A DNA stretch of 64,000 nucleotides, from UHGV virus genome UHGV-1579991; one strand, given 5' to 3'. Numbering within the stretch: position 1 is the stretch's first letter; each line of letters begins with the position of its first letter. Shown one piece after another: positions 15,278 through 58,016 of this stretch. The notes beneath the pieces were generated by a model. The model did no database searches and was not told the DNA's origin. It saw only the letters and a list, made by a program, of their open reading frames with translations. This DNA comes from a virus. A program made the translations under genes and the position numbers.

Positions 15278-15304
15278 ATCAGTTAATTTGTTTGTATATG
15301 TATT

Positions 15305-15377
15305 CGAATGTGCACACATGAGAATAGGTCTCTTCGAATGTGCACATATGAGAATAGTCTCTTCGAATATGCGCACA
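15305..15377. repeat. tandem direct repeat, about 30-bp unit x 2.5 (cgaatgtgcacacatgagaataggtctctt)
   Basis: Read directly from the sequence; lies between a terminator hairpin and the next gene start. Confidence 0.7.
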
Positions 15378-15381
15378 AAAA

Positions 15382-15407
15382 GAAGAGCTTGCATATGCAA
15401 GCTCTTC
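15382..15407 (-). terminator. perfect palindromic hairpin (gaagagcttgcat/atgcaagctcttc) downstream of the gene ending at 15450
   Basis: About 12-bp stem; T-run follows on the minus strand. Confidence 0.55.
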
Positions 15408-30345: not shown

Positions 30346-33300
30346 TTATTTGTGTACTTTTATGCCTGCGCCTTCAAGCAATTCGAAGATGTCAATCAAT
30401 ATCGACATTACAGGATTTGACGGGTCATCAGCAAACTCTGCATACTTGTCTGCGCCTTCTACAGGATTGCTTTCAGTGCCAAGCTTGAGCATAGGCTGCA
30501 TTACACCAGCAGTTGCAGGCAATGCATTCATTGAGCTGAAGTTGTCTTTGTCAGTGTCCTTGTTCAAGAATGACTCAAGAGTGTCGAACAGCTTCTTGAG
30601 TGATTGAACAAGCGGCCCTTCTATCGTTGCTGCGACTTGTTTCAAACCTGCAATCATTTCTTGAGACTGCAATGACTTATATTGCATGTCGAGCTTTGTT
30701 AGCTTTTCAAAGTTGAGTGAATTGATTGCAGTTTGAATGTTCTCGATGTTTGTTGCAGTAGATTGCAGTTCTTTATTGCGCTTATCCAGGTCACCATCGG
30801 CAAGAACATCAAAGAATGCATCAAGCGCTTTGCCAGTATCTTTGACTCTGCTTGTATCAATGCCTTGCATGTCATCAAACATCGATACAATAGCGCCTAC
30901 TGCTGCTTTTGCTGTTGGCGCAAAAGTCTTTTCAATATAATTGACATCAAGTTTTTGTTGCGAGAAGCCTGTTATGAGATTGACAAGTGGGTCAAGTATT
31001 GTGCCAATTCCATCAAAGCCAGCTTTTGCTTGTCGCATACGCTTCTTGAAATCTTCACGTTCAGCTGCGTTTATGCAAGCATTTACAAGAGAATCAATAA
31101 CTGATTCAAGGCCTACACCAACTTTTGGCAATGCTTCAGACAAATCAATTGTGCCGACAACTACGAGTTCACCATTTCGAGCTTCATATTTTGGGAACAC
31201 AAGAGTCGCCATGCCCTTGATGCCCTCAGACAATTGATATACGAGATTGCCAAGACCTGACAATGCATTGATTGCTTTCTTAGCACCCTTTGCTTTGTCT
31301 TCAACACCATCAAGAGCATCAACCATAACCTTGATGAATGTTGCAAGATTGTTGCCAATGCTTACAAGTTCAGCATCAGTTAAGTTGACTTCTGACATTG
31401 TCTTGATTGTCTTTGCAAAATTAAGCATTGACAATCCAACTGCGCCAAGTGCTGCAGCACCTGCAAGTGTAAATGGTAACGTGAATGGGTTGCCTGTTAC
31501 AGTAGCAACGCCTACAAGAGCTGCTACAGTGCCAGCAATTGAAGCAATGTCAAGGTCTTTGACTGTCTGCATCTTTTCAAGTGCAGCAGCAAAGACATAT
31601 GTCGCCGCACCTGTAGCAGCCATTGCACCAGCGCCAAGCAACGCTAATGGGCCAACCAAGCCAAGTGCAGTTGCTGCAGCAGTTACTGTAACTACAAATG
31701 CGCCAAGAGCAAGCATTGTAGTGCCATCAACAGATTGAGCTTTGACAAGAGCGTTTGCATACATTGTAGTGCCGACTGCAGATAATACAAGTGCAGCGCC
31801 ACCAAGCAATGCAGTCGCACCCATATTACCCAGAATTGCGATTGCACCCACATTTGCTGCAATAAACAAGCCCATCATGATAGCAGTTTCACTATCAACT
31901 GCATTTGCAATAAGCAATGCACCAGCAAGTAACGCAACACCAACAGAAGTTACAATGAGTGCACCTGCAGCAACCAATGGTGAGCCTTTACTTGATAGAG
32001 CCATCAATGCTGCAAGTGCACCAGTTACAACTGCAAGTGCTGCACCAGCTTTGCTCATGTCTTCCCAATCAAGCAATTTATATGGCAACATTGCAATGCC
32101 AAGAATGCCGACTGCTGCAGCCATGACAACAACACCAGTAGCAATTGACATAACTTGTTTGCTATCTTTTGCAACTCTTGTCATTACTGCGAAAATCGTA
32201 GCAAGTACGCCGATGCCAAGCGCAGCTTTACCCATGTCTTCCCACTCGACAATTCGCCAAGCAAATATGCTAAGTGCAAGTACGCCAACCGCTGCAGACA
32301 TTGCAAGCACGCCTAAGCCAAGCTTTTGCATATCGCCATCTTTGCCAGCAAGATGATTTGCGCCAGCCATTGCCAATGCAAGTGTAGTGATTGTTATTGC
32401 AGGCGCAAATGCATATGTGTAATCAGGGATGAGTTCGTGCCAAGCCCAAATTGACAATGCAAGCACCGCTATTGAACCTGCAATCATCATCATTTGAGCA
32501 CCAATGCCACCCTTGAGATTTGAGCCCTCTGTCTGCATTTTGCTGAACGCTTCGGCATTACCTTTGCCAGCAAGCGTCATACCAAGACCTGCGCCTGCAG
32601 ATGATATGCCATTTGCAAAGCCGATTGCAAGACCCAATGCAACAATGACACCAAAGATTAAGCCAACAGATTCCCAGCTTGCTTCCATCAATTCACCTGC
32701 AGCAACCACTGCAAGCACAAACAGAGCAATTGAACCTGACAGCATCAACATTTCTTTGCCCACTGCATTCTGCTGTCCTTTCTTGCCGCCGCCTGAACCA
32801 AACAGCGATTCACCAGACAACGCCTTGCCAAGTACCCAGATTGCTCCGCTAACTGCAAGCAAAGCAACTGAACCCATAACAACACCGCCCCACGACACAT
32901 TACTAAACAGCATCATTGACAATGCTACCATGCTAAGTGCGCCTGCAATCATCATGACATTCTTTGCACCAGCTGATGCATCTTTGTCAGTAATTTTGCC
33001 AATTGCCCAATATGCTGCAATGAATGTCAATGTGCCAAGCGTGAACATTCCAAGAGCTTCAAATGTCACAAGTTGACCAAATGACCATATTGTAAGACCC
33101 ACAAGAGCAATTGCTGCAGCAGCTTTCATGACAACCTCTGTCGTTCTATCAAGAGATGCCACAAGTGATTCAACTTGGCTGACCATGTCAGCCACTGCAG
33201 TCATTGACTCTTTATGAGATTTCAGAGTTTCAGCAGCATTCAAATACGAATCGACAAGCTTATTCAAGGCAGCCTCAAATCTTGGAGCAGCCTTTTCAAG

Positions 33301-34068
33301 CCTGTCGACAATCAAATCGATAGCTTCAAGACCGCTTTCAAGCTGCAACCGTTTGACAGGCGACATATTTGTCAAAGAGTCAATGATTGTCGCAAAAGCA
33401 GTAGCTATCGTGCCCATTTTTGGGTCAATGTTGGGCGCATTGCTTGCATTGGCCTTGATGTTTGCGATTGAGTCTTTTTCTTGACGTTCTGCAATGACGT
33501 CTGCAAATGTTGTCAGGTCATCAAGTTTTGATGACATCAATGCAAAGATGTTGCGTTGATTTTCCTCGATAACTTCAAGATAGACTCTTACAAGATCGCA
33601 ATGTTGTGTAAATTCAGTATGTTGTGATTCAACATGCTCTGCAATCACATCAAGCAAAACAGAAGCATCTGATATGTTTGTTGCAGCAGCTTTGTTTTCA
33701 ATATGCTCTGCAATGATTTCGAGCAATGCGTTTGTGTCAGACAATAATGCAGATACTGATGTTGCTGAAGATGATTCGTCTGTTTGCAGTTCAGATATGA
33801 TTTGAGCAAGACCTGCAAACATATTTGTTTCTGCACTCGAATCTTTTTCTTTCCATGATTGATACAAAACTGCACCAACAGTTGAGCACAATGACGCAAC
33901 AATAGTGTCATTGCCAACAATTGACATGAAAGTGTTTTCAAGCTTTGTCAGCTCATCATCACTGACATCAGTCGAAGATGCTAACGATGTGTCAGCATCT
34001 TCGAACTCTTGCCAGTTTGTTGGCTTGTCGCCTGTAGAATCATAGACGTTTGTTTTGTCTTCAGCCAT
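30346..34068 (-). CDS. tail tape-measure-like protein, 1240 aa
   Basis: Very long Ala/Gly-rich protein with many hydrophobic helices and coiled-coil-like N-terminal region, typical of tape measure proteins; inference from composition. Confidence 0.55.
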   Translation of the reverse strand: MAEDKTNVYDSTGDKPTNWQEFEDADTSLASSTDVSDDELTKLENTFMSIVGNDTIVASLCSTVGAVLYQSWKEKDSSAETNMFAGLAQIISELQTDESSSATSVSALLSDTNALLEIIAEHIENKAAATNISDASVLLDVIAEHVESQHTEFTQHCDLVRVYLEVIEENQRNIFALMSSKLDDLTTFADVIAERQEKDSIANIKANASNAPNIDPKMGTIATAFATIIDSLTNMSPVKRLQLESGLEAIDLIVDRLEKAAPRFEAALNKLVDSYLNAAETLKSHKESMTAVADMVSQVESLVASLDRTTEVVMKAAAAIALVGLTIWSFGQLVTFEALGMFTLGTLTFIAAYWAIGKITDKDASAGAKNVMMIAGALSMVALSMMLFSNVSWGGVVMGSVALLAVSGAIWVLGKALSGESLFGSGGGKKGQQNAVGKEMLMLSGSIALFVLAVVAAGELMEASWESVGLIFGVIVALGLAIGFANGISSAGAGLGMTLAGKGNAEAFSKMQTEGSNLKGGIGAQMMMIAGSIAVLALSIWAWHELIPDYTYAFAPAITITTLALAMAGANHLAGKDGDMQKLGLGVLAMSAAVGVLALSIFAWRIVEWEDMGKAALGIGVLATIFAVMTRVAKDSKQVMSIATGVVVMAAAVGILGIAMLPYKLLDWEDMSKAGAALAVVTGALAALMALSSKGSPLVAAGALIVTSVGVALLAGALLIANAVDSETAIMMGLFIAANVGAIAILGNMGATALLGGAALVLSAVGTTMYANALVKAQSVDGTTMLALGAFVVTVTAAATALGLVGPLALLGAGAMAATGAATYVFAAALEKMQTVKDLDIASIAGTVAALVGVATVTGNPFTLPFTLAGAAALGAVGLSMLNFAKTIKTMSEVNLTDAELVSIGNNLATFIKVMVDALDGVEDKAKGAKKAINALSGLGNLVYQLSEGIKGMATLVFPKYEARNGELVVVGTIDLSEALPKVGVGLESVIDSLVNACINAAEREDFKKRMRQAKAGFDGIGTILDPLVNLITGFSQQKLDVNYIEKTFAPTAKAAVGAIVSMFDDMQGIDTSRVKDTGKALDAFFDVLADGDLDKRNKELQSTATNIENIQTAINSLNFEKLTKLDMQYKSLQSQEMIAGLKQVAATIEGPLVQSLKKLFDTLESFLNKDTDKDNFSSMNALPATAGVMQPMLKLGTESNPVEGADKYAEFADDPSNPVMSILIDIFELLEGAGIKVHK

Positions 34069-35444: not shown

Positions 35445-36719
35445 TTATATATTTGACAGCTGTTTGCGTTGCAAAATTGCATGACCGCAGTCATATACTG
35501 CAACATAACCTGCATCAATCATCTCTTGCTCATTTTGTCCGCAGTCTTCAATATGTTCTTTTGTCTTTAAATGACACCAGTGTTTGCGAATTGTTGACTT
35601 GTCATCTGACAGTTGCGGATTAAGTGCGAAGTTAGTTGAGTCTACTGGTTCACCTGCAAGATGCTTTCGAATGACATCAATGACTTCATTGTCATCCATC
35701 CATTCGAATATTGTAATGCAAGTGTAGCCAAGCTTAAGAGCAAGCTGAGTTTTGTCGAAGTGATAGAATTTGCTAACATGCTTATTGTGTGTAGTACGGC
35801 CAATTAAATATGCAAAACCATATGTTGAATTGTGTGACCAAGTTGGATTGATTTCAATCAATAATTTGCAATGTTCATTACTGTAATTGAGGTCATATGA
35901 CCATCGCTCAAGATTGACATCATCAAGCCCACAATCAATCCCAAGTTCTTGCAGCAATTTGTCATGCCACCAATGGTTTGCTCGTGATTTTACATGACCT
36001 TGAGCATCACGACATTTAGCAGTCATACAAAAATATGGGACACCATAGCGTTGCATGTTAGTTGACGCAATTTTTTGCAAATCGCCTGCAGCAGACCCAT
36101 ATTTTTGTCGTTTTGTTGCAACTGCTACTGCAATATTGCCAAATTTGTTGCCATATCGTTTCTGTTTAGTTTCAAGTGCTTTGTCAATATTTATGATGCC
36201 TCTTGTACCATGTTCTTTTTCACGTTTAGCTAAAATTGTTTGCATGTCGCCAAGTTTGTTGCCATATCGTTGCAATTTAGTTTCATGCATTTTTGCAATA
36301 TTTGTCCAACTATCACCATAATGTTGTCTATGTGTTGCAGCGCAACGTGCTTTGTCACCAAACATGTGTCCAAACTTTGCTAAACGACGCTCAACAAATT
36401 TTTGCATGTCACCCATGCCATTACCATATCGTTTCTGCTTAGTTGCAACAGCCTTTTGCATATTGACACCTCGATAGCCATAACGCATTTCTATTGTTGT
36501 AGTAATTTTATCACTGATGACTTTTGATTGCTGAGCATACTCAAAACCATATTTACGCAAGCAGCCAATTCGCTTATTATATTTCAAACGAATTTTACCA
36601 TGTGATGTCTTCTTTGGGCCATACCATTCATATGGCGTTTCTGCAATCAATTTATCACGTTCAGCTTCAAGTTCTTTTATTCGAGCTTCAAGAGCTTCAC
36701 CTATTAATTGTGTTGCCAT
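35445..36719 (-). CDS. repeat-rich (RYG-x-G) putative homing endonuclease or DNA-binding protein, paralog 2, 424 aa
   Basis: Same repeat architecture and C-terminal domain (LIEINPTWSHNSTYGFAYLIGR) as the gene at 19209-20267. Confidence 0.7.
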   Translation of the reverse strand: MATQLIGEALEARIKELEAERDKLIAETPYEWYGPKKTSHGKIRLKYNKRIGCLRKYGFEYAQQSKVISDKITTTIEMRYGYRGVNMQKAVATKQKRYGNGMGDMQKFVERRLAKFGHMFGDKARCAATHRQHYGDSWTNIAKMHETKLQRYGNKLGDMQTILAKREKEHGTRGIINIDKALETKQKRYGNKFGNIAVAVATKRQKYGSAAGDLQKIASTNMQRYGVPYFCMTAKCRDAQGHVKSRANHWWHDKLLQELGIDCGLDDVNLERWSYDLNYSNEHCKLLIEINPTWSHNSTYGFAYLIGRTTHNKHVSKFYHFDKTQLALKLGYTCITIFEWMDDNEVIDVIRKHLAGEPVDSTNFALNPQLSDDKSTIRKHWCHLKTKEHIEDCGQNEQEMIDAGYVAVYDCGHAILQRKQLSNI

Positions 36720-36728
36720 TATAAAATA

Positions 36729-36757
36729 TTGAGATATTCAATATATGTACATATAAT
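36729..36757 (+). promoter_or_regulatory. sigma70-like promoter candidate TTGAGA-N17-TATAAT upstream of terL
   Basis: Hexamers with 17-nt spacer; -10 element ends about 21 nt before ATG 36779; a 7-bp inverted repeat (atattga-N5-tcaatat) overlaps the -35 element. Confidence 0.45.
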
Positions 36758-36778
36758 ACGAATATTCAAATTAAACAT

Positions 36779-38770
36779 ATGTCTGAAGTTAAGCATCAAG
36801 TATATGACCCTGTAGCACAATTCAAATCTGCAGAAGAAAAGGAAGCTGCAAGAGTCGTGTGGTGTTCAGAAAGTGTGCGTCGTGCATATGCAGCAGTTGA
36901 CCAAGGCCTGCCATTACGGTCGAATCCCTGGTTCTTTGGCAATATTGCATTGCGTAAGCCAGGACTATTGTATAGATACTCTGACGTAGAGCTACGTGAA
37001 TGGCTTAGATGTGCTTATGATATACTGTACTTTGCCAACACATACGCTACACTCATGACACCTGCAGGTGTGCGAATGCATATTACGTTGCGACCATATC
37101 AGAAAAAAATGCTTCGTGCGTATCAAAAGCAAAAGTACATTATAAGTTTGTGTGGACGACAAATAGGCAAAACTACGACTGCTGCAATTTTCCTCGCTTG
37201 GGCTGTCATTTTCAATCGTGAGCTCAACATAGCAGTACTTGGCGACCGCTTGGCTACATCAAGTGAAAACCTGAACAAAACAAAAGACATCATAAACAAT
37301 CTGCCATTCTTTATGAAGCCTGGTGTGTTTGTTTGGAATGGTGGAATGGTCGCATTTGACAATGGCTGCAAAATTATCACAGGTACTGCTCAAAAGTCAT
37401 CACTTGTCGGTAAAACAATTCACATCTTGTATCTTGATGAGCTCGCAATTCCGCCTGCTCAGCAATCAAAGACTCTTGTAGACTATGCATTGCCCACAAT
37501 TGCATCATTGCCAACTGGCAAAGTTATCGTAACATCTACGCCATCTGGTGATAATGTGTTCAAGACTTTGTGGCTTGGTGCAATTAACAAAACAAATGGA
37601 TTCTTTCCAATTCAAGTAAACTGGTGGGACATTCCAGGTCGTGATGAAAAGTGGAAAGCTGAACAAATTGCAATTCTTGGTGAAGATGCTTTCAATGAGC
37701 AATACAACTGCGTGTTCTTGTCAGGTGCAACGTCAATTTTCAATTCAAGAGCAATTGATGATATTGCAAGACGACAACAAAAGTATGAATTTGTTGCTGA
37801 TGAGCGTCTTGAATCGCTGCTCAGATTTTTCATTGCTGATTCAGATGTTGGCACTGAACCTGAGCCGCATTCATTTATGACTTGGCGTGCAGATATTGAC
37901 CCAGCGACACTCAAAAATGAAACATGTATCATCAACATCGACATCGCTGAAGGCTTATCTGGCGACTTTTCTGTCATACATGTGCATCGTATAGTTGACA
38001 TTGCAAAAGATGCTGAACTTGAACTTGATGCAAGCAATCTGTATGATATGTTTGACGATGACAAAAAATCATTGTTTGCAAAAGCAGTTGAAATGCAACG
38101 TCAAATGTCGGCAACACAAGCTCAAGATGATGACGATGATGACGATGACGACTGGTTTGGCGCAGACGATGATGTTGCTCAAGGAGTCGATGCATATCAA
38201 GATTATGCGAATGCTGCAGTAGAAGAGATTGGCTTGTGGCGCTCAAATGTGACGTCAATTAAAGTCATGGCTCTGTATTTGCAGTTCTTAATGACATATG
38301 TGTTTGACGCAAACAAAACAAAGATTATCTATGAACGCAACAAATATGGTGGAGAGTTTCGTTCATATTGTTTGTCTGAACGTGCACGCAATATTGCAAT
38401 TGATGAAGAGAGCTTCGTAAGCTTCCAACGAACTCTTGGTTCAGAACAACTTGCACCAGGCTGTTCAATTACGCCTGGCACCAAACCAGTGTACGTAAGA
38501 CAGCTCAAAGACCTTATTGAAACTGGCAAGATTCTTGAAAACAATGCAGATACGCAAAGAGAGCTTACATACTTTGGCGGTGTCAAAGGCAAGAATGGTC
38601 ATGTGTCATATCAGGCATCACCAGGCTTCCATGATGACATTGCAATGACTCTTGTATCTCTTGCAGCATTTATGGACACTCGATGCAACGATTGGCTTGA
38701 ACTGCTTGATGTGTTCTACAATGGCAGCAGTCAAACAAGTTCTGATGATGACGATGATGACTGGATTTGA
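36779..38770 (+). CDS. terL: terminase large subunit, 663 aa, with unusual poly-Asp insertions
   Basis: Walker A GRQIGKTT and Walker B ILYLDE in the N-terminal ATPase domain; acidic runs QAQDDDDDDDDDWFGADDD and C-terminal SSDDDDDDWI. Confidence 0.9.
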   Translation: MSEVKHQVYDPVAQFKSAEEKEAARVVWCSESVRRAYAAVDQGLPLRSNPWFFGNIALRKPGLLYRYSDVELREWLRCAYDILYFANTYATLMTPAGVRMHITLRPYQKKMLRAYQKQKYIISLCGRQIGKTTTAAIFLAWAVIFNRELNIAVLGDRLATSSENLNKTKDIINNLPFFMKPGVFVWNGGMVAFDNGCKIITGTAQKSSLVGKTIHILYLDELAIPPAQQSKTLVDYALPTIASLPTGKVIVTSTPSGDNVFKTLWLGAINKTNGFFPIQVNWWDIPGRDEKWKAEQIAILGEDAFNEQYNCVFLSGATSIFNSRAIDDIARRQQKYEFVADERLESLLRFFIADSDVGTEPEPHSFMTWRADIDPATLKNETCIINIDIAEGLSGDFSVIHVHRIVDIAKDAELELDASNLYDMFDDDKKSLFAKAVEMQRQMSATQAQDDDDDDDDDWFGADDDVAQGVDAYQDYANAAVEEIGLWRSNVTSIKVMALYLQFLMTYVFDANKTKIIYERNKYGGEFRSYCLSERARNIAIDEESFVSFQRTLGSEQLAPGCSITPGTKPVYVRQLKDLIETGKILENNADTQRELTYFGGVKGKNGHVSYQASPGFHDDIAMTLVSLAAFMDTRCNDWLELLDVFYNGSSQTSSDDDDDDWI

Positions 38771-38776
38771 TTTGTG

Positions 38777-38836
38777 GCACATCATCACAAAACAAGCCAG
38801 CAGAATTGTCTGCTGGCTTGTTTTGTGATGATGTGC
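38777..38836. terminator. 28-bp perfect inverted repeat with 4-nt loop between convergent terL and DHFR genes
   Basis: gcacatcatcacaaaacaagccagcaga/attg/tctgctggcttgttttgtgatgatgtgc; no strong U-tract on either side. Confidence 0.6.
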
Positions 38837-38838
38837 TG

Positions 38839-39342
38839 TCATCGTTTTCGATGGAAGACTTTGAATTTGTATCGTAACGTTCTGTCATTATCTGTGCATG
38901 TGTATAGTGCAGACTCAGATTTTTTAGTCCACATTCGCCAATTGACTGCAGGAAATCGAACGTCGCCCTCAACATAATTGTCAATCATCGTCAAGTACAT
39001 TCTGTCTGCATAAATCATTGCTTCTTCAAACAACTTAGAACCGCCGATGATAAACATGTTAGACGCAAATGCAGACTTGCAATATGCTATTGCATTGGCT
39101 AGCGTGCTAAATACGAAATAGTCGCTTGTTGGCTGCAATGTAGAGCTTATAACAATGTTAATTCTGTCAGGCAAGGGTTTGCAATTCATCGACTCAAAAG
39201 TCTTACGACCCATGATGACAATGTGATTCTTTGTGAGTTTCTTGAAGTGCTGCAAGTCATATGGAATATGCCAGGGCAAATCACCATTGCGACCTATGAC
39301 ATTGTTATTTGATACTGCTGCTATGATATTGATGTATTGCAT
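38839..39342 (-). CDS. folA: dihydrofolate reductase, 167 aa
   Basis: IAAVSNNNVIGRNGDLPWHIPYDL, VIMGRKTFES and IIGGSKLFEE motifs typical of DHFR. Confidence 0.85.
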   Translation of the reverse strand: MQYINIIAAVSNNNVIGRNGDLPWHIPYDLQHFKKLTKNHIVIMGRKTFESMNCKPLPDRINIVISSTLQPTSDYFVFSTLANAIAYCKSAFASNMFIIGGSKLFEEAMIYADRMYLTMIDNYVEGDVRFPAVNWRMWTKKSESALYTCTDNDRTLRYKFKVFHRKR

Positions 39343-41972: not shown

Positions 41973-43877
41973 CTACAAAGATTTGAACAATTCCTCGTAT
42001 GTTACAATTTTCTTGCCTTTTGCAAGTGCTGCTTTCATTTTGTTCGACAGCTTGTTGACATCATTTGTGACAACATAGTCACATGCATCAATGTTTGCAC
42101 CGACATCTTCAAGCTTACCATTTGCTGCATCAATAAATGCACCTTTTGTTGCCCAAGTAGGCTTAGGCGAGCCTGTCATGACAACCTTGATTGTGTTAGC
42201 ATGCGCAGATGCTTCTTTATGCATTTCATTGAACATCACGAAGCATTGTGGAAAGCGCTTGAGTAATCTTTGTATGACATTCAACTTTATGAGCCTGTCA
42301 ATTGGCTCCATGCTCAAGCCCTTAAAGTCATACTGGCAATTGCTAAAGTACGCAGACAACTGATATGCAGCTTTACCACCGAGACCAGGAATCTGCATGC
42401 ATTCAATGAAATGCGACAAGTGAATGCTACTGAAGCGTTCACGTAAGCCTGCAATGACTGTACGGTCATTTTTGCTGTTTGTGTCAAACTGCAGCAGCTC
42501 AAACAGTCGTTCATTGTCAACTTCTTGCACAATGCAGAACAAGTCTTCAATTGTGGGCGCATCAGAGAATGTCAACATGACATCAAGATTGTCTTGTGCA
42601 ATAAGCAATGCTTCACAAATTTTCGTAGCATAAACCCAGCCAAGCCCATCAATATTAAGCTTGCAAACGCCTTTGATAAACCTCGTGCATCTTGCAAATT
42701 CCTCAGGCATCATCAAGTGAATGCCATCGACATATGCATGTACAGGAATGTCAGCTTTGCTGCTATCACCAGGTTCAATACATTCTTGAATGTCTGGAAT
42801 AATGTCACCGCCCTTTTCAATACGAACAAGAGCGCCTGGCCAAATACCATTTGCATGCAAAAAGCCATAGTGAAATGCTGAAGCTGCTTTTACTGTAGTG
42901 CCATCAAGCTCAACAGGCTCAAGTTCAACTCTCGGAAAAAGCTCACCATTGATTCGCTGACGCCAATCAATTCGAGTCACTCGAGTTACAGCAGACATTG
43001 CGTCAAGCTTCAATGCAACCATGTTTGCATATTCTGCTGCATTTGCAAACTGCTGCTCAATCCACAAGTCATCTGCAAAAGGCTTGACTACAATGCCATC
43101 AATGCGATATTTGAATTCTGAACGCCCATTGGCAATTTTTGTGCAAGTTTCTGCAAACTCATTGTAATCAGTGACTTCAAAGACTTCTGCAATGAATTCT
43201 GCAGGCCAGCCAACTTTAGCAAGAGCATCTGCAGGATTGGTTTGCTCATATGTTTTGCCATCAAGTGTGTCAGTCAGCATGTATGCCATAGGGTCAATGT
43301 CTTCCATGCCACACATGTCTAATGACTTCACAAATGCTGCAGCAGTATTGCGCTCATTTTTGTATTTGACAGAGCCATCAGCATTGAAATGATATTTTTG
43401 TGCAAAAATGTCTTTTGCAATGACAGCCTCAAAGCGAATTTGATATGGCTGTTCTGCTGCAGCAAGCTGCATCGGCACTTTGCCTGCTACAACAAATTTG
43501 CGCGTGACATCATAGCCCGTATAGCCATCACCACGAGTAACAACTTTTAGCAATCTGCCATCAGTGTCGTAATGTGCTTCACAGCCCATGCCATCATACT
43601 TGTGCATAAGCAGCATTTCATGACCAACAATGTTGCACACAGTATCATGCAACGCAGTTGTAAACTGTGACTTTGTATGAATTGCAGCAAGACTCAATGC
43701 AGGTGTAAGATGCTTAACTTCTTGTTTATTTGACTCTTCAAAGCGAATCTTATGTTTAATGTCGCTATTTGCAAGAAGCTGCTGTTCAAGAGCATCAAAT
43801 GCCTCATCAGACATTATCGGATTGCCTGCATAATACGCAGCTATTGCGTCATGGTACATATTGAGTGTATCAGTCAT
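41973..43877 (-). CDS. ligA: NAD-dependent DNA ligase-like protein, 634 aa
   Basis: N-terminal Ia-like segment (AYYAGNPIMSDEAFDALEQQL) and adenylation motif KYDG with downstream TRGDG; motif-level call. Confidence 0.65.
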   Translation of the reverse strand: MTDTLNMYHDAIAAYYAGNPIMSDEAFDALEQQLLANSDIKHKIRFEESNKQEVKHLTPALSLAAIHTKSQFTTALHDTVCNIVGHEMLLMHKYDGMGCEAHYDTDGRLLKVVTRGDGYTGYDVTRKFVVAGKVPMQLAAAEQPYQIRFEAVIAKDIFAQKYHFNADGSVKYKNERNTAAAFVKSLDMCGMEDIDPMAYMLTDTLDGKTYEQTNPADALAKVGWPAEFIAEVFEVTDYNEFAETCTKIANGRSEFKYRIDGIVVKPFADDLWIEQQFANAAEYANMVALKLDAMSAVTRVTRIDWRQRINGELFPRVELEPVELDGTTVKAASAFHYGFLHANGIWPGALVRIEKGGDIIPDIQECIEPGDSSKADIPVHAYVDGIHLMMPEEFARCTRFIKGVCKLNIDGLGWVYATKICEALLIAQDNLDVMLTFSDAPTIEDLFCIVQEVDNERLFELLQFDTNSKNDRTVIAGLRERFSSIHLSHFIECMQIPGLGGKAAYQLSAYFSNCQYDFKGLSMEPIDRLIKLNVIQRLLKRFPQCFVMFNEMHKEASAHANTIKVVMTGSPKPTWATKGAFIDAANGKLEDVGANIDACDYVVTNDVNKLSNKMKAALAKGKKIVTYEELFKSL

Positions 43878-44109
43878 CGTCTTCTTCTGTTAAATCATTT
43901 TCTTCTACCAATGTGTCAGTTGTGTCAATATCTGGAAATTCGTAGTTGTTAGGTCGTTTTACGCTAATGTCATGCAAATGCTTCATAAGTTCATCACGAG
44001 TCATAAAGAACGTGTTATTATTGTCATTTGCATACATTAAAGACTTTGCTGTAGATTCATATGTAGTTGCCGTGCACATATACAACGGCAAGCCATTCAG
44101 TGTTGGCAT
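43870..44109 (-). CDS. hypothetical small acidic protein, 79 aa
   Basis: ORF; C-terminal EENDLTEEDDD. Confidence 0.45.
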   Translation of the reverse strand: MPTLNGLPLYMCTATTYESTAKSLMYANDNNNTFFMTRDELMKHLHDISVKRPNNYEFPDIDTTDTLVEENDLTEEDDD

Positions 44110-45335: not shown

Positions 45336-46679
45336 TCAGAATTGAAACATGTTATTGATAAATGCGTCGCCAAACTGCGCATCTGCAGCTTTTGACGTTG
45401 TGTCATACGTTGCTGCATTGATGCCAAGTGCAGTTATTGTTGATTGCGCATCTACAAGTTCATACACTTTGCAGCTCGGCTTTGTAATGTCTGTAAACGA
45501 CATTGTGTACATGAAGTTTTCAAAGATATGTCTTGGTACTTCACGTGCATTCAAACATGCAAGTTGTCTATTTTCTGCAAATCGCGCCTTGAGCCATTCA
45601 AAGTCATCTGCAGGTACTGAGTCAACATTCATGAATGTCTTATATGCTGCAGTCAAAAACATTGCAATGACTTCGTCATCATACAAATCTTCACCAAGCA
45701 TATATCGCATGCCAGGTTCCAACTGTTTTGCATTGTTAGTTTCAATACCAAGAGACTTCAATGCATCGTAGATTTGGCCTACAGATAAATGCGACCAATT
45801 GTTGCCACGTTTCTTGAGCTTGCCAAACAATTCTGGGATGTTGTCACCAGCATCACCAAGCACAATCTTGTAAAACAAGAAACTTGGCACATGTTCATGA
45901 ATCTCAGCATCAACATACTCAAGCAATGCTGCATATGGGTTGTCAAGAATACGTGTTTTAACTTGAGCACCAGCAAAGCTGTCGAAGATGCTGCCGCCGA
46001 CATTCTGCGACTTTTCACCAGCAAGTTCTTTGATGTGTTCAAGCACAAACTTGTCGCCCATCAGTACTCGAGACTTCTGCCACCCATTTGCTTTGCAGCC
46101 ATTTTTGATGATTGCATATGCTGAACATGCGCCAGTGTTTGTGTTGACACATACACATTGAGTCAAGTCTTTATCAGTGCCTTGATACAGCACATTGCGG
46201 CCTTTTGATGTTGCATATCTACTAAGCATGAAGATGACATCATCAGCCTCTGCTTCAGAAAGCTTGATGTGACGAATGCCATGTACTTCTTGCATCAACT
46301 TAAGCCATTCAAAATATACACCATAAACTTTGAGCCAGTTGATTGTCTGGTCATACGTTCGAGTGCCTTTGTAACCAGCATCTTCACCTTGTTCAAAGCC
46401 TTCTCTTGTCAAATATTGATGCTTTGAGCGCCACAAATTCGACTTTTTGTCATCGACAGCAATAATGACATCATCAACGACATCTTCAAGTCTACGAAGC
46501 TCATTACAAAGGTCGAGCGTTAACTTGGATATCAAAGACAGTCTTGATGCATTCTCATTCTTTTCGAATGACAAGTCTGTACCTGATTTTGCTAATACTG
46601 GCACTCTGCTCTTAACCCACCAGCTCCCGTCAATTACGTAAATGAACTTGTGATTATGAGTATTGTCAAGCTTTGTCAT
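45336..46679 (-). CDS. 5'-3' exonuclease / flap endonuclease (FEN, RNase H-like), 447 aa
   Basis: FIYVIDGSWW, SEAEADDVIFML and GDAGDNIP motifs matching the 5'-3' exonuclease family. Confidence 0.8.
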   Translation of the reverse strand: MTKLDNTHNHKFIYVIDGSWWVKSRVPVLAKSGTDLSFEKNENASRLSLISKLTLDLCNELRRLEDVVDDVIIAVDDKKSNLWRSKHQYLTREGFEQGEDAGYKGTRTYDQTINWLKVYGVYFEWLKLMQEVHGIRHIKLSEAEADDVIFMLSRYATSKGRNVLYQGTDKDLTQCVCVNTNTGACSAYAIIKNGCKANGWQKSRVLMGDKFVLEHIKELAGEKSQNVGGSIFDSFAGAQVKTRILDNPYAALLEYVDAEIHEHVPSFLFYKIVLGDAGDNIPELFGKLKKRGNNWSHLSVGQIYDALKSLGIETNNAKQLEPGMRYMLGEDLYDDEVIAMFLTAAYKTFMNVDSVPADDFEWLKARFAENRQLACLNAREVPRHIFENFMYTMSFTDITKPSCKVYELVDAQSTITALGINAATYDTTSKAADAQFGDAFINNMFQF

Positions 46680-47523: not shown

Positions 47524-47919
47524 TTATCGGTTCTTTGAAAATGAAACTTGCGTTGATTGCTGTGGTCGAACATCAACAAACACTGAATCTACTGCGTCAA
47601 ACTTAAGCGTAGCAAGTGAATCAATTGTTTGCCTTGCTTTTTGCAAATTGCGTGCTTTGATGCCTGATACTGTTGCAGATTTTTCAAGCAGATATGCATC
47701 ACGAGGCGTCCAGTAGCGAGCCTGCCAACGCATATGCATAGAGTCGACAACCAAATTTTCTGCTGCAGCATCAATAATTGCTGCAGTTGATTGCTGAGTT
47801 GCATCAAGTCGTTGCTGCAATACTGCTAATTGCTTTGTGTGCTGCTGTTGATGTTTGAATACTATGCTGATTGCTCCAAATAAGAGAAACCATGCAATAA
47901 AACGCAAAAATGACTTCAT
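47524..47919 (-). CDS. hypothetical membrane-anchored protein, 131 aa
   Basis: N-terminal hydrophobic segment FIAWFLLFGAISIVF. Confidence 0.5.
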   Translation of the reverse strand: MKSFLRFIAWFLLFGAISIVFKHQQQHTKQLAVLQQRLDATQQSTAAIIDAAAENLVVDSMHMRWQARYWTPRDAYLLEKSATVSGIKARNLQKARQTIDSLATLKFDAVDSVFVDVRPQQSTQVSFSKNR

Positions 47920-48890
47920 GATTGCTGCACGAATTTTGAGAGCTCGAATGACAATGCGAGCATTGTTATGAATTGGTCAATTGACTGTTTAGACTCTACA
48001 CTGTATTTGTGAGCTGCAATGACAATGTCTCCAAGTCGTGCAACAAAACCAGGCGTATTCTTTGAGAGCTTTGCATAGCACCAATTTGCAAAGTCAGTTG
48101 AGAGAGCATTGATGACTTCAGTTTCACGACCTTTGTATTGTGACAATGTTTTGTAAAATTCACGCGGGTCTTTGCATGCGACAATGAAGTCATACAGTTC
48201 TTCAAACTTTGCTGACATGCCCTTTGTGACATGCTCAAGCGTTATATGACGCTCACCTTGATTGAAGACAAAGTAGCAAATGTTCAGAATTTTGCGGAAG
48301 TCTGGATAGTTATCTTGAATTAGCTTGATGAGCGCTTCTTTTTCAATGGTGCATTCATTTTCCTTCAAGATATTGTAGACGCGAACCATGCACTTCTTCA
48401 TCAACTGTTCTGCAATATCATCAGAAAAGTCGAATGACAGCATTTTGAGACGAGATTGAGCAATTGATGCATCAATACGGTCTGGATAATTGCAAGTTGC
48501 AATGAAAAACGCAATGCCTGCAAACTCTTCAATGGTGCCTCGCAAAGCCATCTGGCTTTGTGTCGATAGATAATCCATTTCATCAAGCAGCACAACCTTT
48601 ACGCCACTTGACGACAATGACATATGCTGACAGAATTCTGAAATTGTGTTGCGAACTGTGTCAATGCCAGAATTCTTTGAGCAGTTGATTTGCAGAATTG
48701 AACGTCTATCAGTCCACTTCAATGCCAATGCTCTTGCTGCGGTTGTTTTTCCACTTCCTGGTGCTCCTGCGAACAAATAATTTTGCGGCTGACCATTAAA
48801 TGCCGCAGCATAATCATCAGGCACAATTAACTCTTCGACTTTTGTTGGCCTGTAGCGTTCTAACCAAGTTCTATCTTTAAGGGATGCCAT
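47916..48890 (-). CDS. clamp loader subunit (RFC / gp44-like AAA+ ATPase), about 324 aa; start trimmed
   Basis: WLERYRPTKVEEL ... LFAGAPGSGKTT (Walker A) ... LLDEMDYL (Walker B); start moved to ATG 48890 (MASLKD). Confidence 0.75.
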   Translation of the reverse strand: MASLKDRTWLERYRPTKVEELIVPDDYAAAFNGQPQNYLFAGAPGSGKTTAARALALKWTDRRSILQINCSKNSGIDTVRNTISEFCQHMSLSSSGVKVVLLDEMDYLSTQSQMALRGTIEEFAGIAFFIATCNYPDRIDASIAQSRLKMLSFDFSDDIAEQLMKKCMVRVYNILKENECTIEKEALIKLIQDNYPDFRKILNICYFVFNQGERHITLEHVTKGMSAKFEELYDFIVACKDPREFYKTLSQYKGRETEVINALSTDFANWCYAKLSKNTPGFVARLGDIVIAAHKYSVESKQSIDQFITMLALSFELSKFVQQS

Positions 48891-48934
48891 TTGTTGTTTG
48901 TTGATATATGTAAAAATATTGTACAACAATACTG

Positions 48935-50126
48935 TCATTTTTGCACAGCATGGCCGCAATCGTACACAGGCACATAACCAGCGTCAAGCATTTGTTGTTC
49001 ATCTACTTCTGCAGTATGCGCAGCATACAGTCGCTTCTTGTAATTCCACCAATGTTTTCTAATAGTCAATTTGTCATTGCATATGACAGGATTTTTTGAC
49101 AAGTCTGTGCTATCTACACGTTCATTGCATAAATGCTGTCGTATGATTTCTACAACGTCATCAGGGTTATCCCAATCCCATATTGTAATGCATATGTAGC
49201 CTGCTGTAAGTGCTGCTTGAGTTTTTCTAAAATGTCTATCATTAGGAATTGGCAAATTGCGTTTAGATTTGCCAATTGCATATGCAAAGCCAAATGCAGC
49301 ATTATGTGAAAACGATGGGTTGATTTCTATTAGTAGATGCTTATAATGCAAATCATAAGAAAATCTGCCAATATTGACATCATCAAATGTGCAATCAATG
49401 TTAAGTCGTTGCAGCAAAAAATCATGCCACCAACGATTAACCGTTGTAATGGTGCGCCCATTAGCATGCCGACAACGCTCAGTCATAACAAACCAAGGTA
49501 CACCATAGCGTTCAAGATTTGTTTGCATGCGTTTTGCAGTGCCACCATATTCATCACCGTATCGTAATCTGCGTGTATGAACTGCTTTTAATGGGTTGCC
49601 AGCAGAATTGCCATATCGTAGCATCTTTGTTTGCTGCGCTTTAGCAGTAATTACACCATGGTCAGGATAGTGTTCGCGTATTGTTTGCTGCACTTTAGTA
49701 GCATTCCATGTGCGATAGCCGTACTTGTGTAATTTTGTTTGCTGGGCTTTTTGCATGTTGTTATAATATGGGTCGCCATAGCGTTCTTCTTTAATTTTGC
49801 ACATTAACTGTTGGTCGCCAAATGCATTGCCATATTTTGCAAGTTTTGTTGCCTTAAATTTAGTCATGTCGCCAAGCCCATTGCCATATCTTTCTCGTTT
49901 TGTTGCGACACCTTTGTTTGTAAATTCTTTTTAATTGCGCAGTGTTTTCAACACCATATTTACGCAAATTGCTTATACGACTGTTATATGTACGTTTGCA
50001 AATTGTGTATTGTGAGTAGCGTTTATGCTGAGGTCGTTCTTTAGACGCAGTTTGCAATATCACATCTCTTTCCTCTTCAAGTTCTTTTATGCGAGCTTCA
50101 AGAGCTTCTCCAGTTAATGGTTCCAT
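48935..50126 (-). pseudogene. repeat-rich (RYG-x-G) homing-endonuclease-like gene, paralog 3, split by a frameshift
   Basis: Two overlapping ORFs (49860-50126 and 48935-49867); homology to paralog 2 continues across a T5 run at about 49928-49932 only if one base is removed. Confidence 0.6.
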
Positions 50127-56339: not shown

Positions 56340-56597
56340 TTAATTGTTGAGATACTGCTGAAGCTCGGCTTCTGTTGCAAGTCTACATTGCTTAATATTG
56401 AACACTGTCATAATATGACAACTCTTGCATTTATGCCAAATTTCAGCAACAGCAGTTTGTGTGTTCTTTGGCAATGAGTGTCTGTACTTGACAATGTCTG
56501 TAGTACCGCAGCATTTACATGTGCCAAGCACTACATACAATTTTGAGTTAGTCGCGCTCAATTGTGACATGTCTAACTTCTGCTTCTTCATAGCCAT
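56340..56597 (-). CDS. small zinc-ribbon-like protein, 85 aa
   Basis: CKCCG ... CKSCH motifs. Confidence 0.5.
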   Translation of the reverse strand: MAMKKQKLDMSQLSATNSKLYVVLGTCKCCGTTDIVKYRHSLPKNTQTAVAEIWHKCKSCHIMTVFNIKQCRLATEAELQQYLNN

Positions 56598-57969: not shown

Positions 57970-58016
57970 TGTAGCTAATTTGATTTTATTTCCTATATTA
58001 TTGTACAACGATGTTG

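What the first reader, a model, noticed from the sequence alone, without database searches (positions are those of the whole stretch)
36779..38770. Terminase large subunit carries poly-aspartate insertions
Between the ATPase and the C-terminal region the protein has QAQDDDDDDDDDWFGADDD (nine consecutive Asp, encoded by mixed GAT/GAC codons rather than a nucleotide homopolymer) and it ends SSDDDDDDWI. Long acidic tracts are not a usual feature of terminases; they could mediate interaction with a basic partner or be recent low-complexity expansions.
Basis: seen in the sequence. Interest (0 to 1): 0.4.

Follow-up and report, generated by a model that had tools for sequence, protein, structure and literature searches.

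The report
Acidic disordered add-ons in phage terminase
The DNA-packaging enzyme of this large phage carries two floppy, strongly acidic segments ending in aromatic residues; a whole clade of related phages has them, so they are an old, selected feature, probably docking motifs, and not a recent sequence accident.

Summary
ORF 36779-38770 (+) is a T4-type large terminase (TerL, 663 aa) with a D9 run (aa 450-458) and a C-terminus ending SSDDDDDDWI.

- **Position.** The internal tract is not a linker between the two domains. It sits in a 71-aa insertion (aa 408-478) at the tip of the beta2-beta3 hairpin of the RNase-H-like nuclease domain. T4 gp17 has a tight turn there.
- **Structure.** AlphaFold2 predicts both acidic segments as disordered.
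- **Charge.** Together they carry about -24 of the protein's -26 net charge.
- **Distribution.** Of 255 aligned homologues, 32 (31-98% identity, including Chryseobacterium phage MA9V-1 relatives) have an acidic insert at this site. Of those, 31 also have an acidic, aromatic-ended tail. The other 223 have a neutral 20-43 aa segment there, bar four with longer near-neutral ones.
- **Selection.** Composition is conserved while sequence is not. Run lengths are held across 5% nucleotide divergence, with synonymous changes inside the runs.
- **Age.** The acidic modules are ancient and selected. Only the pure poly-Asp form is specific to this lineage; it is built from a 9-nt GATGATGAC tandem unit.
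- **Likely function (inferred, not shown).** Acid-plus-aromatic short linear motifs that dock TerL to a basic partner, most plausibly the portal.

This is a new variant of a known kind, of moderate-to-low interest.

The parts
36779..38770 (+). Large terminase subunit (TerL) CDS, 663 aa, T4 gp17 type
   Evidence: ORF and translation. Pfam Terminase_6N E 2.4e-22. PHROG 5989 and PHROG 2 terminase large subunit. phmmer to T4 gp17 3ezk/3cpe, E about 1e-43. Foldseek top hit T4 gp17, E 7e-35.
37154..37174 (+). Walker A, GRQIGKT (aa 126-132)
   Evidence: Aligns to T4 SRQLGKT. R127, Q128 and K131 are invariant in 77 sequences. Coordinates.
37424..37441 (+). Walker B plus catalytic Glu, ILYLDE (aa 216-221)
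   Evidence: D220 and E221 are invariant. Aligns to T4 MIYIDE.
37940..37942 (+). First nuclease catalytic Asp, D388, at the end of beta1 in IDIAEG
   Evidence: Invariant in 77 sequences. Corresponds to T4 D401 in LDCSEG. beta1 is 383-388 in the model.
38000..38212 (+). Clade-specific insertion (aa 408-478) at the beta2-beta3 hairpin tip of the nuclease domain: helices 408-416, 421-424 and 427-453, a disordered acidic loop 455-470, and helix 472-477
   Evidence: AF2 model. The D396-to-N490 segment is 93 aa here, 20-23 aa in T4-like TerLs and 40-43 aa in the intermediate clade. The insert's charge at pH 7 is -18.
38117..38173 (+). Acidic-aromatic core QAQDDDDDDDDDWFGADDD (aa 447-465). The D9 run is 38126-38152, 3 copies of GATGATGAC
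   Evidence: The D-run itself scores low (10-residue blocks 441-450 and 451-460 average pLDDT 64 and 48), and pLDDT is below 50 over 455-470. Equivalent acid-plus-aromatic windows occur in all 32 clade members.
38333..38335 (+). Second nuclease catalytic residue, E519
   Evidence: Invariant. By position it matches T4 E458 of the D401/E458/D542 triad.
38573..38617 (+). Terminase-specific regulatory beta-hairpin (aa 599-613), intact and separate from the insertion
   Evidence: Strands 599-603 and 609-613 in the model. Aligns to the T4 stretch just before GYHDD. The T4 hairpin is aa 525-535 (PMC3074133).
38633..38638 (+). Third catalytic position, D619-D620, in GFHDDIAM
   Evidence: Invariant. 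Aligns to T4 GYHDDLVM, D542.
38732..38767 (+). Disordered acidic C-terminal tail QTSSDDDDDDWI (aa 652-663). The D6 run is 38744-38761, 2 copies of GATGATGAC
   Evidence: pLDDT is below 50 over 652-663. 31 of 32 clade members have at least 4 D/E and at most 1 K/R in the last 15 residues. It is a 24-nt near-copy (92%) of 38135-38158.
36729..36757 (+). Promoter-like site, TTGAGA-17-TATAAT (11 of 12), 22 nt upstream of the TerL ATG
   Evidence: Consensus scan only. Function not shown.
38777..38836 (.). Perfect 28-nt inverted repeat with a 4-nt loop, between the convergent TerL and DHFR genes; possibly a bidirectional terminator
   Evidence: the repeat finder. The terminator scan did not score it, as there is no T-run.

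Best explanation
**Shown.** The gene encodes a complete T4-type large terminase, an ATPase plus an RNase-H-like nuclease. Its nuclease domain carries two intrinsically disordered, strongly acidic modules:
- a 71-aa insertion at the tip of the beta2-beta3 hairpin, whose core is D9 followed by Trp-Phe;
- a 12-aa C-terminal tail, D6 followed by Trp-Ile at the carboxy terminus.

Both modules are hallmarks of one clade of large (about 180-215 kb) PAU/MA9V-related myophages. They are conserved in composition (acidic, no basic residues, aromatics retained) but not in sequence.

**Inferred.** The two modules act as acid-plus-aromatic short linear motifs. The polyanionic stretch steers TerL by long-range electrostatics towards a basic surface, and the aromatic or hydrophobic residues anchor it in a pocket. 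The most likely partner is the portal (clip) or procapsid vertex, where the TerL C-terminal tail docks in other phages. With two motifs per subunit, a pentameric motor would present ten.

**Also inferred.** The extreme poly-Asp form in this lineage arose by tandem duplication of a 9-nt GATGATGAC unit within an already acidic segment.
For: **Identity and fold**
-. All catalytic motifs are present and invariant.

**Position and disorder**
- The AF2 model of the query (mean pLDDT 86.5) places the insert between beta2 (398-407) and beta3 (479-489). pLDDT is below 50 at 455-470 and 652-663.
- An independent model of a 34%-identical clade member, P0019, shows the same architecture.

**Clade-wide conservation**
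- Of 255 aligned homologues, 32 have an insert of 57-117 aa with net acidity of 9 to 24. Of those, 31 also have an acidic last 15 residues. The exception, P0121, has the acidic-aromatic stretch followed by an extension.
- Of the other 223, 219 have a 20-50 aa (mostly 20-43 aa) segment with roughly neutral charge. Four have 56-66 aa segments of near-neutral charge; one of those (P0135) lacks the aligned catalytic residues and is probably misaligned.
- Across the 32 members, the most acidic 25-aa window averages 12.7 D/E, 0.5 K/R and 2.4 F/W/Y. The last 20 aa average 8.0 D/E, 0.3 K/R and 2.7 F/W/Y.
- An acid-embedded motif, F-x-x-[ML]-[VIF]-D-D (FDAMVDD, FSDLVDD, FADMVDD), recurs in about half the clade, across both deep branches.

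**Selection**
- Window versus L004: 95.1% nt identity, with 84 synonymous and 10 non-synonymous codon changes. GAT/GAC swaps occur inside both runs, but the run lengths are identical.
- D9 is present in 12 of 13 full-length members read from the 90% cluster, and D6 in all 14 members that include the C-terminus.

**Specificity**
- No other protein in the window has such runs.

**Precedent for the partner**
- The TerL C-terminal tail is thought to bind the portal or procapsid (PMC5389665).
- A negatively charged C-terminal cluster in T4 gp17 is proposed to be involved in portal interaction, and nearby S583 is reported as proven to be involved (PMC5727402).
- The T4 portal clip has a positively charged region near the channel entrance (PMC9958956).

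**Origin of the homopolymer**
- TRF finds 3.0 and 2.0 copies of GATGATGAC. A 24-nt direct repeat links the two tracts.
Against: - No partner was identified. No portal gene could be recognised in the window: 20 large ORFs were scanned against PHROGs and 10 against Pfam. The closest isolate's paper annotates none. Charge complementarity therefore could not be examined.
- In the T4 cryo-EM model, the portal-interacting residues are placed in the ATPase domain (PMC9958956; alternative arrangement noted in PMC5389665).
- The described 'C-terminal arm' of other TerLs carries conserved positive residues (PMC5727402). That is the opposite of this tail.
- The query itself has only a degenerate version (WFGADDD) of the clade motif.
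- A pure poly-Asp run would serve a non-specific polyanion role equally well.
Confidence: 0.42

Rival explanations
1. Cis-acting DNA mimic or autoinhibitor. The polyanionic disordered loop and tail occupy TerL's own basic DNA-binding surfaces (the nuclease groove or the DNA-gripping ATPase domain). This keeps the nuclease and motor off DNA until assembly on the procapsid displaces them. It would work like the acidic tails of T7 gp2.5, T4 gp32 and SSB, which compete with DNA for the protein's own binding site.
For: - The insert and tail carry -24 charge, while the query's ATPase domain is basic (pI 8.9, +6).
- ATPase domains of the acidic clade are more positive on average (+4.6) than those of the other groups (-2.1 and -0.7; Mann-Whitney p 4.5e-7 and 6e-5).
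- The T4 nuclease groove is lined by basic residues, and nuclease activity must be held off during translocation (PMC3074133; PMC9958956).
- The D6E C-terminal arm docks on its own ATPase active site in the resting monomer (PMC5727402).
- The gp2.5 tail competes with ssDNA for the same surface (PMC10359462).
Against: - The charge correlation is phylogenetically confounded and holds only in the query's sub-branch. The P0018/P0128-type members have an acidic insert but neutral or negative ATPase domains.
- AF2 does not dock either segment onto the body of the protein; pLDDT is below 50.
- The base of the insert is at the end of the sheet opposite the active site. This is a topological inference from strand directions, not a measurement.
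- A conserved hydrophobic motif inside the acid stretch points to a specific protein pocket, not to simple phosphate mimicry.
Confidence: 0.25
2. Tolerated low-complexity decoration with no specific partner. The hairpin tip and the C-terminus are permissive sites where slippage-generated acidic repeats accumulate. At most they improve solubility or repel non-specific DNA (an entropic bristle).
For: - The tracts are 9-nt tandem repeats.
- The sequence of the acidic segments is unalignable between sub-branches, and their length varies from 57 to 117 aa.
- The same hairpin has expanded stepwise, from about 22 to about 41 to 57-117 aa. That marks it as an insertion-tolerant site.
- One cluster member has D10.
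Against: - Net acidity, near-absence of K/R and retention of aromatics are kept in all 32 members, down to 31% identity.
- The insert and the acidic tail co-occur in 31 of 32 members.
- Run length is fixed across 5% nt divergence, with synonymous changes inside the runs, and in 12 of 13 population variants.
- A shared linear motif exists across deep branches.
- No other protein in the window has such runs.
Confidence: 0.15
3. Docking site for a different basic partner: the still unidentified small terminase, whose basic C-terminal tail binds TerL in P22-like systems (my own knowledge), or another phage protein such as a late-transcription or replication factor.
For: - The same SLiM-type evidence as for the best explanation.
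- No TerS is recognisable next to TerL. TerL is a lone + strand gene between - strand genes, so the holoenzyme's composition is unknown.
Against: There is no candidate partner in the window. MA9V-1's upstream 117-aa ORF is acidic (pI 5.4) and has no homologue in the window. Published evidence for the TerL C-terminus points to the portal.
Confidence: 0.1
4. Counter-defence. The bulky, charged, disordered insert on the nuclease domain hinders recognition by bacterial TerL sensors. Among Avs1-3 and Upx, at least SeAvs3 is reported to bind the folded nuclease domain.
For: - The model's Foldseek hits include Avs3-bound PhiV-1 terminase, 8dgc.
- SeAvs3 binds the terminase nuclease extensively in its native conformation. 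KpAvs2 can be activated by nuclease domains of some terminases (PMC13601566).
Against: - There is no direct evidence.
- Avs3 targets active-site features, and the insert's base is at the other end of the sheet (an inference).
- EcAvs2 and, by a co-folding prediction, Upx recognise mainly the ATPase domain.
- This idea does not explain the matching C-terminal motif or the conserved hydrophobic residues.
Confidence: 0.06

Closest known systems
Bacteriophage T4/T2 gp17 large terminase (PDB 3CPE, 3EZK)
   Same: - Two-domain architecture.
- Walker A, Walker B and the catalytic Glu.
- RNase-H-like nuclease with a D/E/D triad, and the terminase-specific beta-hairpin before the HDD motif.
- Best sequence and fold match among solved structures.
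   Different: - In T2 gp17, used here as the close proxy for T4, beta2-beta3 is a tight turn (IIDVTDDVWEQVGV). The segment is about 22 aa, against 93 aa here.
- Its C-terminus (…SAEYVPVSHGMSMV) is not polyacidic.
- Only 21-29% identity.
TerL of Chryseobacterium phages MA9V-1 and MA9V-2, the closest cultured relatives, plus metagenomic relatives P0001-P0020
   Same: - MA9V-1 is 40.6% identical over 95% of the protein.
- It has an acidic/aromatic insert at the same site (…DGDDDFQMGDDLFEDYDIYW…).
- It has an acidic/aromatic C-terminus (…DDFYGDGFDEWVG).
- The gene orientation relative to its downstream neighbours is the same.
   Different: - MA9V-1 has no homopolymeric Asp runs.
- Its insert is shorter and lacks the long helix.
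- The published descriptions do not mention these features.
Sphingomonas (Sphingobacterium) phage PAU gp87 and Tenacibaculum phage PTm1/pT24 TerL
   Same: They belong to the same broad jumbo-myophage group and are 32-34% identical.
   Different: - PAU has a short, non-acidic beta2-beta3 connection.
- PAU has a long non-acidic C-terminal extension, although it ends …DDSAESLMDMF.
- These phages mark the boundary of the acidic-insert clade.
Portal-binding C-terminal tail or 'C-terminal arm' of large terminases (D6E, Sf6, P74-26, T4)
   Same: A flexible segment after the last nuclease helix that is thought to contact the portal. In T4 a negatively charged cluster lies there (PMC5727402; PMC5389665).
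   Different: - The described arms have a conserved positively charged tip (D6E R421, T4 K567).
- This tail has no basic residue in its last 20 aa.
- This protein also has a second, internal copy of the acidic-aromatic element.
Acidic C-terminal tails of phage and bacterial ssDNA-binding proteins (T7 gp2.5; E. coli SSB …DDDIPF; T4 gp32)
   Same: A disordered polyacidic tail with a terminal aromatic or hydrophobic residue. These tails bind partner proteins and compete with DNA for the protein's own binding surface (PMC10359462; the SSB motif is from my own knowledge).
   Different: The fold and the process are unrelated: an OB-fold replication protein versus a packaging ATPase/nuclease. This is an analogy of mechanism only, not homology.

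Membership tests
T4-type large terminase (Pfam PF03237 Terminase_6N; gp17-like) | N-terminal ASCE ATPase with Walker A, Walker B plus a catalytic Glu, and the coupling (C) motif | tested here: met
   GRQIGKT 126-132, ILYLDE 216-221 and VTSTP 251-255. The residues are invariant across 77 homologues. Pfam E 2.4e-22, above the curated cut-off.
T4-type large terminase (Pfam PF03237 Terminase_6N; gp17-like) | C-terminal RNase-H-like nuclease with an acidic catalytic triad (T4 D401/E458/D542) | tested here: met
   D388, E519 and D619/D620 are invariant. HDD aligns to T4 GYHDD. The nuclease domain matches RB49 and G20c nuclease structures.
T4-type large terminase (Pfam PF03237 Terminase_6N; gp17-like) | Overall fold like solved TerL structures, including the terminase-specific beta-hairpin | tested here: met
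   AF2 mean pLDDT 86.5. Foldseek: T4 gp17 E 7e-35; ATPase domain rmsd 2.0 A over 275 columns. The hairpin is at 599-613.
T4-type large terminase (Pfam PF03237 Terminase_6N; gp17-like) | ATP-driven DNA packaging and headful or terminal cleavage activity | not testable with these tools
   This needs biochemistry or genetics.
TerL 'C-terminal arm' as defined for D6E/Sf6/P74-26/T4 | A short segment after the last nuclease helix carrying a conserved positively charged residue at its tip | tested here: not met
   A flexible segment follows helix 637-653. The last 20 residues have 0 K/R and 7 D/E. PMC5727402 describes conserved positive residues.
SSB/gp2.5-type acidic C-terminal interaction tail (functional class, not a homologous family) | A disordered polyacidic C-terminus ending in an aromatic or hydrophobic residue | tested here: met
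   …SSDDDDDDWI, with pLDDT below 50. The same pattern holds across the clade.
SSB/gp2.5-type acidic C-terminal interaction tail (functional class, not a homologous family) | The tail binds a basic or hydrophobic pocket on partner proteins, or competes with DNA for the protein's own site | not testable with these tools
   No partner was identified, and no complex prediction was available.
SSB/gp2.5-type acidic C-terminal interaction tail (functional class, not a homologous family) | The tail is attached to an OB-fold ssDNA-binding domain | tested here: not met
   The protein is an ATPase plus an RNase-H-like nuclease.
Intein or homing-endonuclease insertion in TerL (seen in some homologues) | Intein splicing or LAGLIDADG domains interrupting the host protein | tested here: not met
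   Pfam finds only Terminase_6N in the query. The insert is 71 aa, helical plus disordered. Inteins are present in other homologues such as P0069 and P0089.

The most novel reading that the evidence does not exclude
The two polyacidic, aromatic-tipped disordered segments are a built-in pseudo-substrate switch. In free TerL they occupy the enzyme's own DNA-binding surfaces and silence the headful nuclease and motor. Capture of their aromatic tips by the portal releases the inhibition. Procapsid docking would thus be coupled directly to activation, a regulatory logic not described for any terminase. A further possibility is that they also blunt recognition by Avs-type terminase sensors.
Probability: 0.15. 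Interest if true: 0.6.

Novelty: new variant of a known kind. Interest (0 to 1): 0.3.

Why it matters
How the large terminase docks on the portal, and how its nuclease is held off during packaging, are still debated. Opposite orientations have been proposed for T4 and for HK97/P74-26.

This clade of large phages has TerLs with two conspicuous, conserved, disordered acid-plus-aromatic motifs on the nuclease domain. Their small size makes them easy handles for peptide pull-downs, deletions and complex prediction. Such experiments could identify the contact partner and the orientation of the motor in this group.

The analysis also documents an insertion hot-spot, the beta2-beta3 hairpin tip, in the terminase nuclease fold. 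Otherwise the gene is an ordinary, complete terminase.

Tried and rejected
- **Close DNA relatives.** Megablast of the gene against 50,697 phage records found nothing. Relatives had to be found at protein level.
- **Finding the portal, to test charge complementarity.** Twenty large window ORFs were scanned against PHROGs and ten against Pfam. Only baseplate, tape-measure, ligase, exonuclease, clamp-loader and topoisomerase hits came back, and no portal. The MA9V-1 paper annotates no portal. I abandoned this line.
- **A small terminase next to TerL.** None is present. MA9V-1's upstream 117-aa ORF is acidic and has no homologue in the window.
- **Measuring where the acidic loop sits relative to the active site.** Model coordinates are not exposed to the script environment. 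Only topological inference was possible.
- **Intein or homing-endonuclease remnant as the origin of the insert.** Rejected: no such domain, and the insert is too small.
- **A proteome-wide poly-Asp habit.** Rejected: TerL is the only ORF in the window with long runs.
- **A hypervariable slippage tract.** Largely rejected: run lengths are identical at 5% nt divergence and in 12 of 13 cluster members.
- **Gene conversion between the two tracts.** There is a 24-nt repeat, 92% identical in the window and 96% in L004, and the last Asp codon co-varies. With only two Asp codons, the chance probability is about 0.02-0.1, so I leave it as a curiosity.
- **Literature.** Searches found no description of acidic inserts in terminases.
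Full report
**1. The observation**

ORF 36779..38770 on the + strand encodes a 663-aa protein containing QAQDDDDDDDDDWFGADDD (aa 447-465) and ending SSDDDDDDWI. The D9 run (aa 450-458, nt 38126-38152) is encoded GAT GAT GAC GAT GAT GAC GAT GAC GAC. The D6 run (aa 656-661, nt 38744-38761) is encoded GAT GAT GAC GAT GAT GAC.

Tandem Repeats Finder also shows that both runs are built from one 9-nt unit, GATGATGAC, with 3.0 and 2.0 copies.

The window's 61 likely ORFs (19,915 aa) have an Asp frequency of 6.5%, so about 4e-7 D9 runs are expected by chance. TerL is the only one of these ORFs with a D/E run of 6 or more. The only other run of 5 is the EEDDD tail of a 79-aa ORF.

**2. What the protein is**

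It is a complete T4-type large terminase:
- Pfam Terminase_6N, E 2.4e-22.
- PHROG terminase families.
- phmmer to T4 gp17 structures, E about 1e-43.
- The AlphaFold2 model (mean pLDDT 86.5) has T4 gp17 as its best Foldseek match in the PDB (E 7e-35). The ATPase domain superposes at 2.0 A.

Walker A (GRQIGKT 126-132), Walker B with the catalytic Glu (ILYLDE 216-221), the C-motif (TSTP) and the nuclease residues D388, E519 and D619/D620 are all present. They are invariant in alignments of 29 and 77 homologues. Nothing suggests a pseudogene or an intein.

**3. Where the acidic tracts sit**

The internal tract is not a linker between the ATPase and nuclease domains. In the model, beta1 of the nuclease domain is 383-388, ending at the catalytic D388. 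beta2 is 398-407 and beta3 is 479-489.

Residues 408-478 are an insertion at the beta2-beta3 hairpin tip. It consists of:
- two short helices (408-416 and 421-424);
- a 27-residue helix (427-453, pLDDT about 64-72);
- a disordered loop (455-470, pLDDT below 50) holding the end of the D9 run and the WFGADDD that follows; the D-run itself also scores low (blocks 441-450 and 451-460 average 64 and 48);
- a short helix (472-477).

In T2 gp17, used here as the close proxy for T4, the same connection is a tight turn, IIDVTDDVWEQVGV.

The terminase-specific regulatory beta-hairpin (T4 aa 525-535; PMC3074133) corresponds to aa 599-613 here. It is intact and separate from the insertion. The last 12 residues (652-663) follow the final helix and are also predicted to be disordered.

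The insert and the tail contribute about -18 and -6 to a total charge of -26. The ATPase domain alone is basic (pI 8.9, +6).

**4. Distribution**

There is no close DNA relative among 50,697 phage records. By protein, the closest isolates are:
- Chryseobacterium phage MA9V-1: 40.6% identity over 95% of the protein;
- Chryseobacterium phage MA9V-2;
- Sphingomonas phage PAU gp87: 31.8% identity;
- Tenacibaculum phages PTm1 and pT24.

Metagenomic databases hold relatives at 98%, 74%, 55-62% and 31-46% identity. The exact protein lies on contigs up to 181 kb.

I aligned 255 full-length homologues and measured the segment between the columns of D396 and N490:
- 68 sequences (T4/cyanophage-like) have 20-29 aa.
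- 136 have 40-49 aa with roughly zero net charge.
- 32 (the query, P0001-P0020, P0023, P0030, P0032, P0121, P0124-P0128, P0133, P0138, P0141) have 57-117 aa with a net acidity of 9 to 24.
- The remaining 19 have other lengths. Four of them (P0122, P0123, P0135, P0184) have 56-66 aa with near-neutral charge.

Of the 32 with an acidic insert, 31 also have at least 4 D/E and at most 1 K/R in the last 15 residues. The exception, P0121, has the acidic-aromatic stretch followed by an 18-aa extension. MA9V-1 shows both features; PAU shows neither in this form.

Among the other 223 sequences, acidic hydrophobic-ended C-termini occur only sporadically (16 cases).

A second AF2 model, of the 34%-identical clade member P0019, gives the same architecture. 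It has a low-confidence acidic loop at 431-453 between beta2 and beta3, and a disordered tail.

The two features are therefore hallmarks of one clade and co-occur. Because this is a single clade, the co-occurrence is not statistically independent evidence of coupling.

**5. Evidence for selection**

The acidic segments cannot be aligned residue by residue between sub-branches, yet their composition is constant:
- The most acidic 25-aa window of the insert averages 12.7 D/E, 0.5 K/R and 2.4 aromatic residues.
- The last 20 residues average 8.0 D/E, 0.3 K/R and 2.7 aromatic residues.
- The whole-protein background is 14.7% acidic, 11.2% basic and 10.9% aromatic.

Retention of aromatics at background level in disordered, polyacidic segments is what is seen in short linear interaction motifs (my own knowledge).

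About half the clade shares an acid-embedded motif, F-x-x-[ML]-[VIF]-D-D (FDAMVDD, FSDLVDD, FADMVDD, FEFMVDD). These members span both deep branches. The query has a degenerate form, WFGADDD.

At the nucleotide level, the window and a 95.1%-identical relative (L004) differ by 84 synonymous and 10 non-synonymous codons. GAT/GAC changes fall inside both runs, but the run lengths are identical.

Among the members read from the 90% cluster, 12 of the 13 full-length ones have D9 and one has D10. All 14 members that include the C-terminus have the D6 tail. This argues against a freely slipping, neutral tract.

**6. What is recent**

The homopolymeric form is confined to the query's immediate lineage. 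The 74% relative has DDDYDDDDDYYD and a DEDDD end. The 55-62% relatives have mixed D/E/aromatic stretches and …DDGFGL or …DDGYGI ends.

The 9-nt tandem structure fits expansion in DDD units. So does the 24-nt near-identical direct repeat linking the end of the internal tract to the C-terminal tract. That repeat is 92% identical in the window and 96% in L004.

It may also reflect duplication or conversion between the two sites. With only two Asp codons, however, the chance probability of that similarity is about 0.02-0.1. I treat it as a curiosity.

**7. Mechanism**

*Shown:* two disordered, polyanionic, aromatic-tipped modules on the nuclease domain, conserved in composition across a clade.

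*Inferred, best explanation (confidence about 0.4):* they are docking motifs for a basic partner, with the portal clip or procapsid vertex the leading candidate. The supporting literature is:
- The TerL C-terminal tail is thought to bind the portal (PMC5389665).
- In T4 gp17 a negatively charged C-terminal cluster is proposed to be involved in portal interaction, and nearby S583 is reported as proven to be involved (PMC5727402).
- The HK97 cryo-EM assembly has the nuclease domains fitted directly under the portal clip (PMC10359639).
- The T4 clip has a positively charged region (PMC9958956).

*Against:*
- No portal could be identified in the window.
- The geometry could not be checked.
- The T4 cryo-EM model puts the ATPase domain, not the nuclease domain, at the portal.
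- The described C-terminal arms carry positive residues, not negative ones.

*Main rival (about 0.25):* a cis-acting DNA mimic or autoinhibitor, by analogy with the gp2.5 and SSB tails and with the D6E arm, which docks on its own ATPase.
- It is weakly favoured by the basic ATPase domain.
- It is also weakly favoured by the more positive ATPase domains in the acidic clade (+4.6 versus -2.1 and -0.7).
- That trend holds only in the query's sub-branch and is phylogenetically confounded.

*Lesser rivals:* neutral or solubility decoration (0.15), another basic partner such as an unidentified small terminase (0.1), and shielding from Avs-type terminase sensors (0.06).

**8. Comparison with what is known, and novelty**

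Membership in the T4-type TerL family is met on every sequence and fold criterion tested. The acidic modules resemble SSB/gp2.5 tails in form only. They do not match the positively tipped 'C-terminal arm' described for other TerLs.

Literature searches found no description of an acidic beta2-beta3 insertion or a polyacidic tail in terminases. This is a new variant of a known kind. The enzyme is ordinary and complete; its clade-specific, evidently selected disordered add-ons have an untested function.

Interest is moderate to low (0.3). It would rise if the motifs proved to be a portal-triggered autoinhibitory switch.

Noticed in passing
window 38777-38836: A perfect 28-nt inverted repeat with a 4-nt loop (GCACATCATCACAAAACAAGCCAGCAGA / TCTGCTGGCTTGTTTTGTGATGATGTGC). 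It fills the gap between the convergent TerL stop (38770) and the DHFR stop (38839). It is probably a bidirectional terminator, but the T-run-based scan did not call it.
   Followed up: partly
window 36720-36778; gene order 35445-39342: TerL is a lone + strand gene among - strand neighbours. A near-consensus promoter-like site (TTGAGA-17-TATAAT, 36729-36757) lies in the 59-nt divergent intergenic region. In phage PAU, TerL is likewise flanked on both sides by opposite-strand genes. In MA9V-1 the downstream genes are opposite-strand but a small co-oriented ORF sits just upstream.
   Followed up: partly
window 35445-36719 (-): A 424-aa ORF divergent from TerL contains about six copies of a degenerate motif, K(Q/R)(K/R)YGNxxGD(M/L)Q. 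It has a sub-threshold hit to DUF7487 (26.6 bits against a cut-off of 27). Function is unknown, and it is conserved next to TerL in the 95%-identical relative.
   Followed up: no
window 38135-38158 versus 38744-38767; L004 4357-4380 versus 4966-4989: The end of the internal Asp tract plus its Trp codon is a 24-nt near-copy of the C-terminal tract (92% in the window, 96% in the relative). The last Asp codon before Trp is GAC at both sites in the window and GAT at both sites in L004. This hints at intragenic duplication or conversion, but the statistics are weak.
   Followed up: partly
window 43870-44109 (-): A 79-aa ORF is the only other protein in the window with an acidic tail (…VEENDLTEEDDD). 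It lies just upstream of the NAD-dependent DNA ligase gene (41973-43877).
   Followed up: no
homologues P0069, P0087, P0089, P0090, P0097 and several 800-1070-aa representatives (for example P0176, P0251): A number of related TerLs are interrupted by inteins or homing-endonuclease domains (PF05204, PF14528, PF14890) and match the query in 3-4 separate stretches. The query has none.
   Followed up: no
window 38839-39342, 41973-43877, 45336-46679, 47916-48959, 56548-58008, 13667-15400, 30346-34068 (all -): The surrounding genes are DHFR, NAD-dependent DNA ligase, an exonuclease, a clamp loader, topoisomerase II, a baseplate wedge protein and a tape-measure-like protein. Most of the large structural ORFs (up to 1442 aa) have no PHROG or Pfam match. 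This fits a poorly characterised jumbo myophage of the PAU/MA9V group, whose known hosts are Bacteroidota.
   Followed up: partly
alignment of 255 TerL homologues (D396-N490 segment): The beta2-beta3 hairpin of the terminase nuclease domain falls into three discrete length classes: about 22 aa, about 41 aa and 57-117 aa. This suggests stepwise expansion at one insertion-tolerant site.
   Followed up: yes
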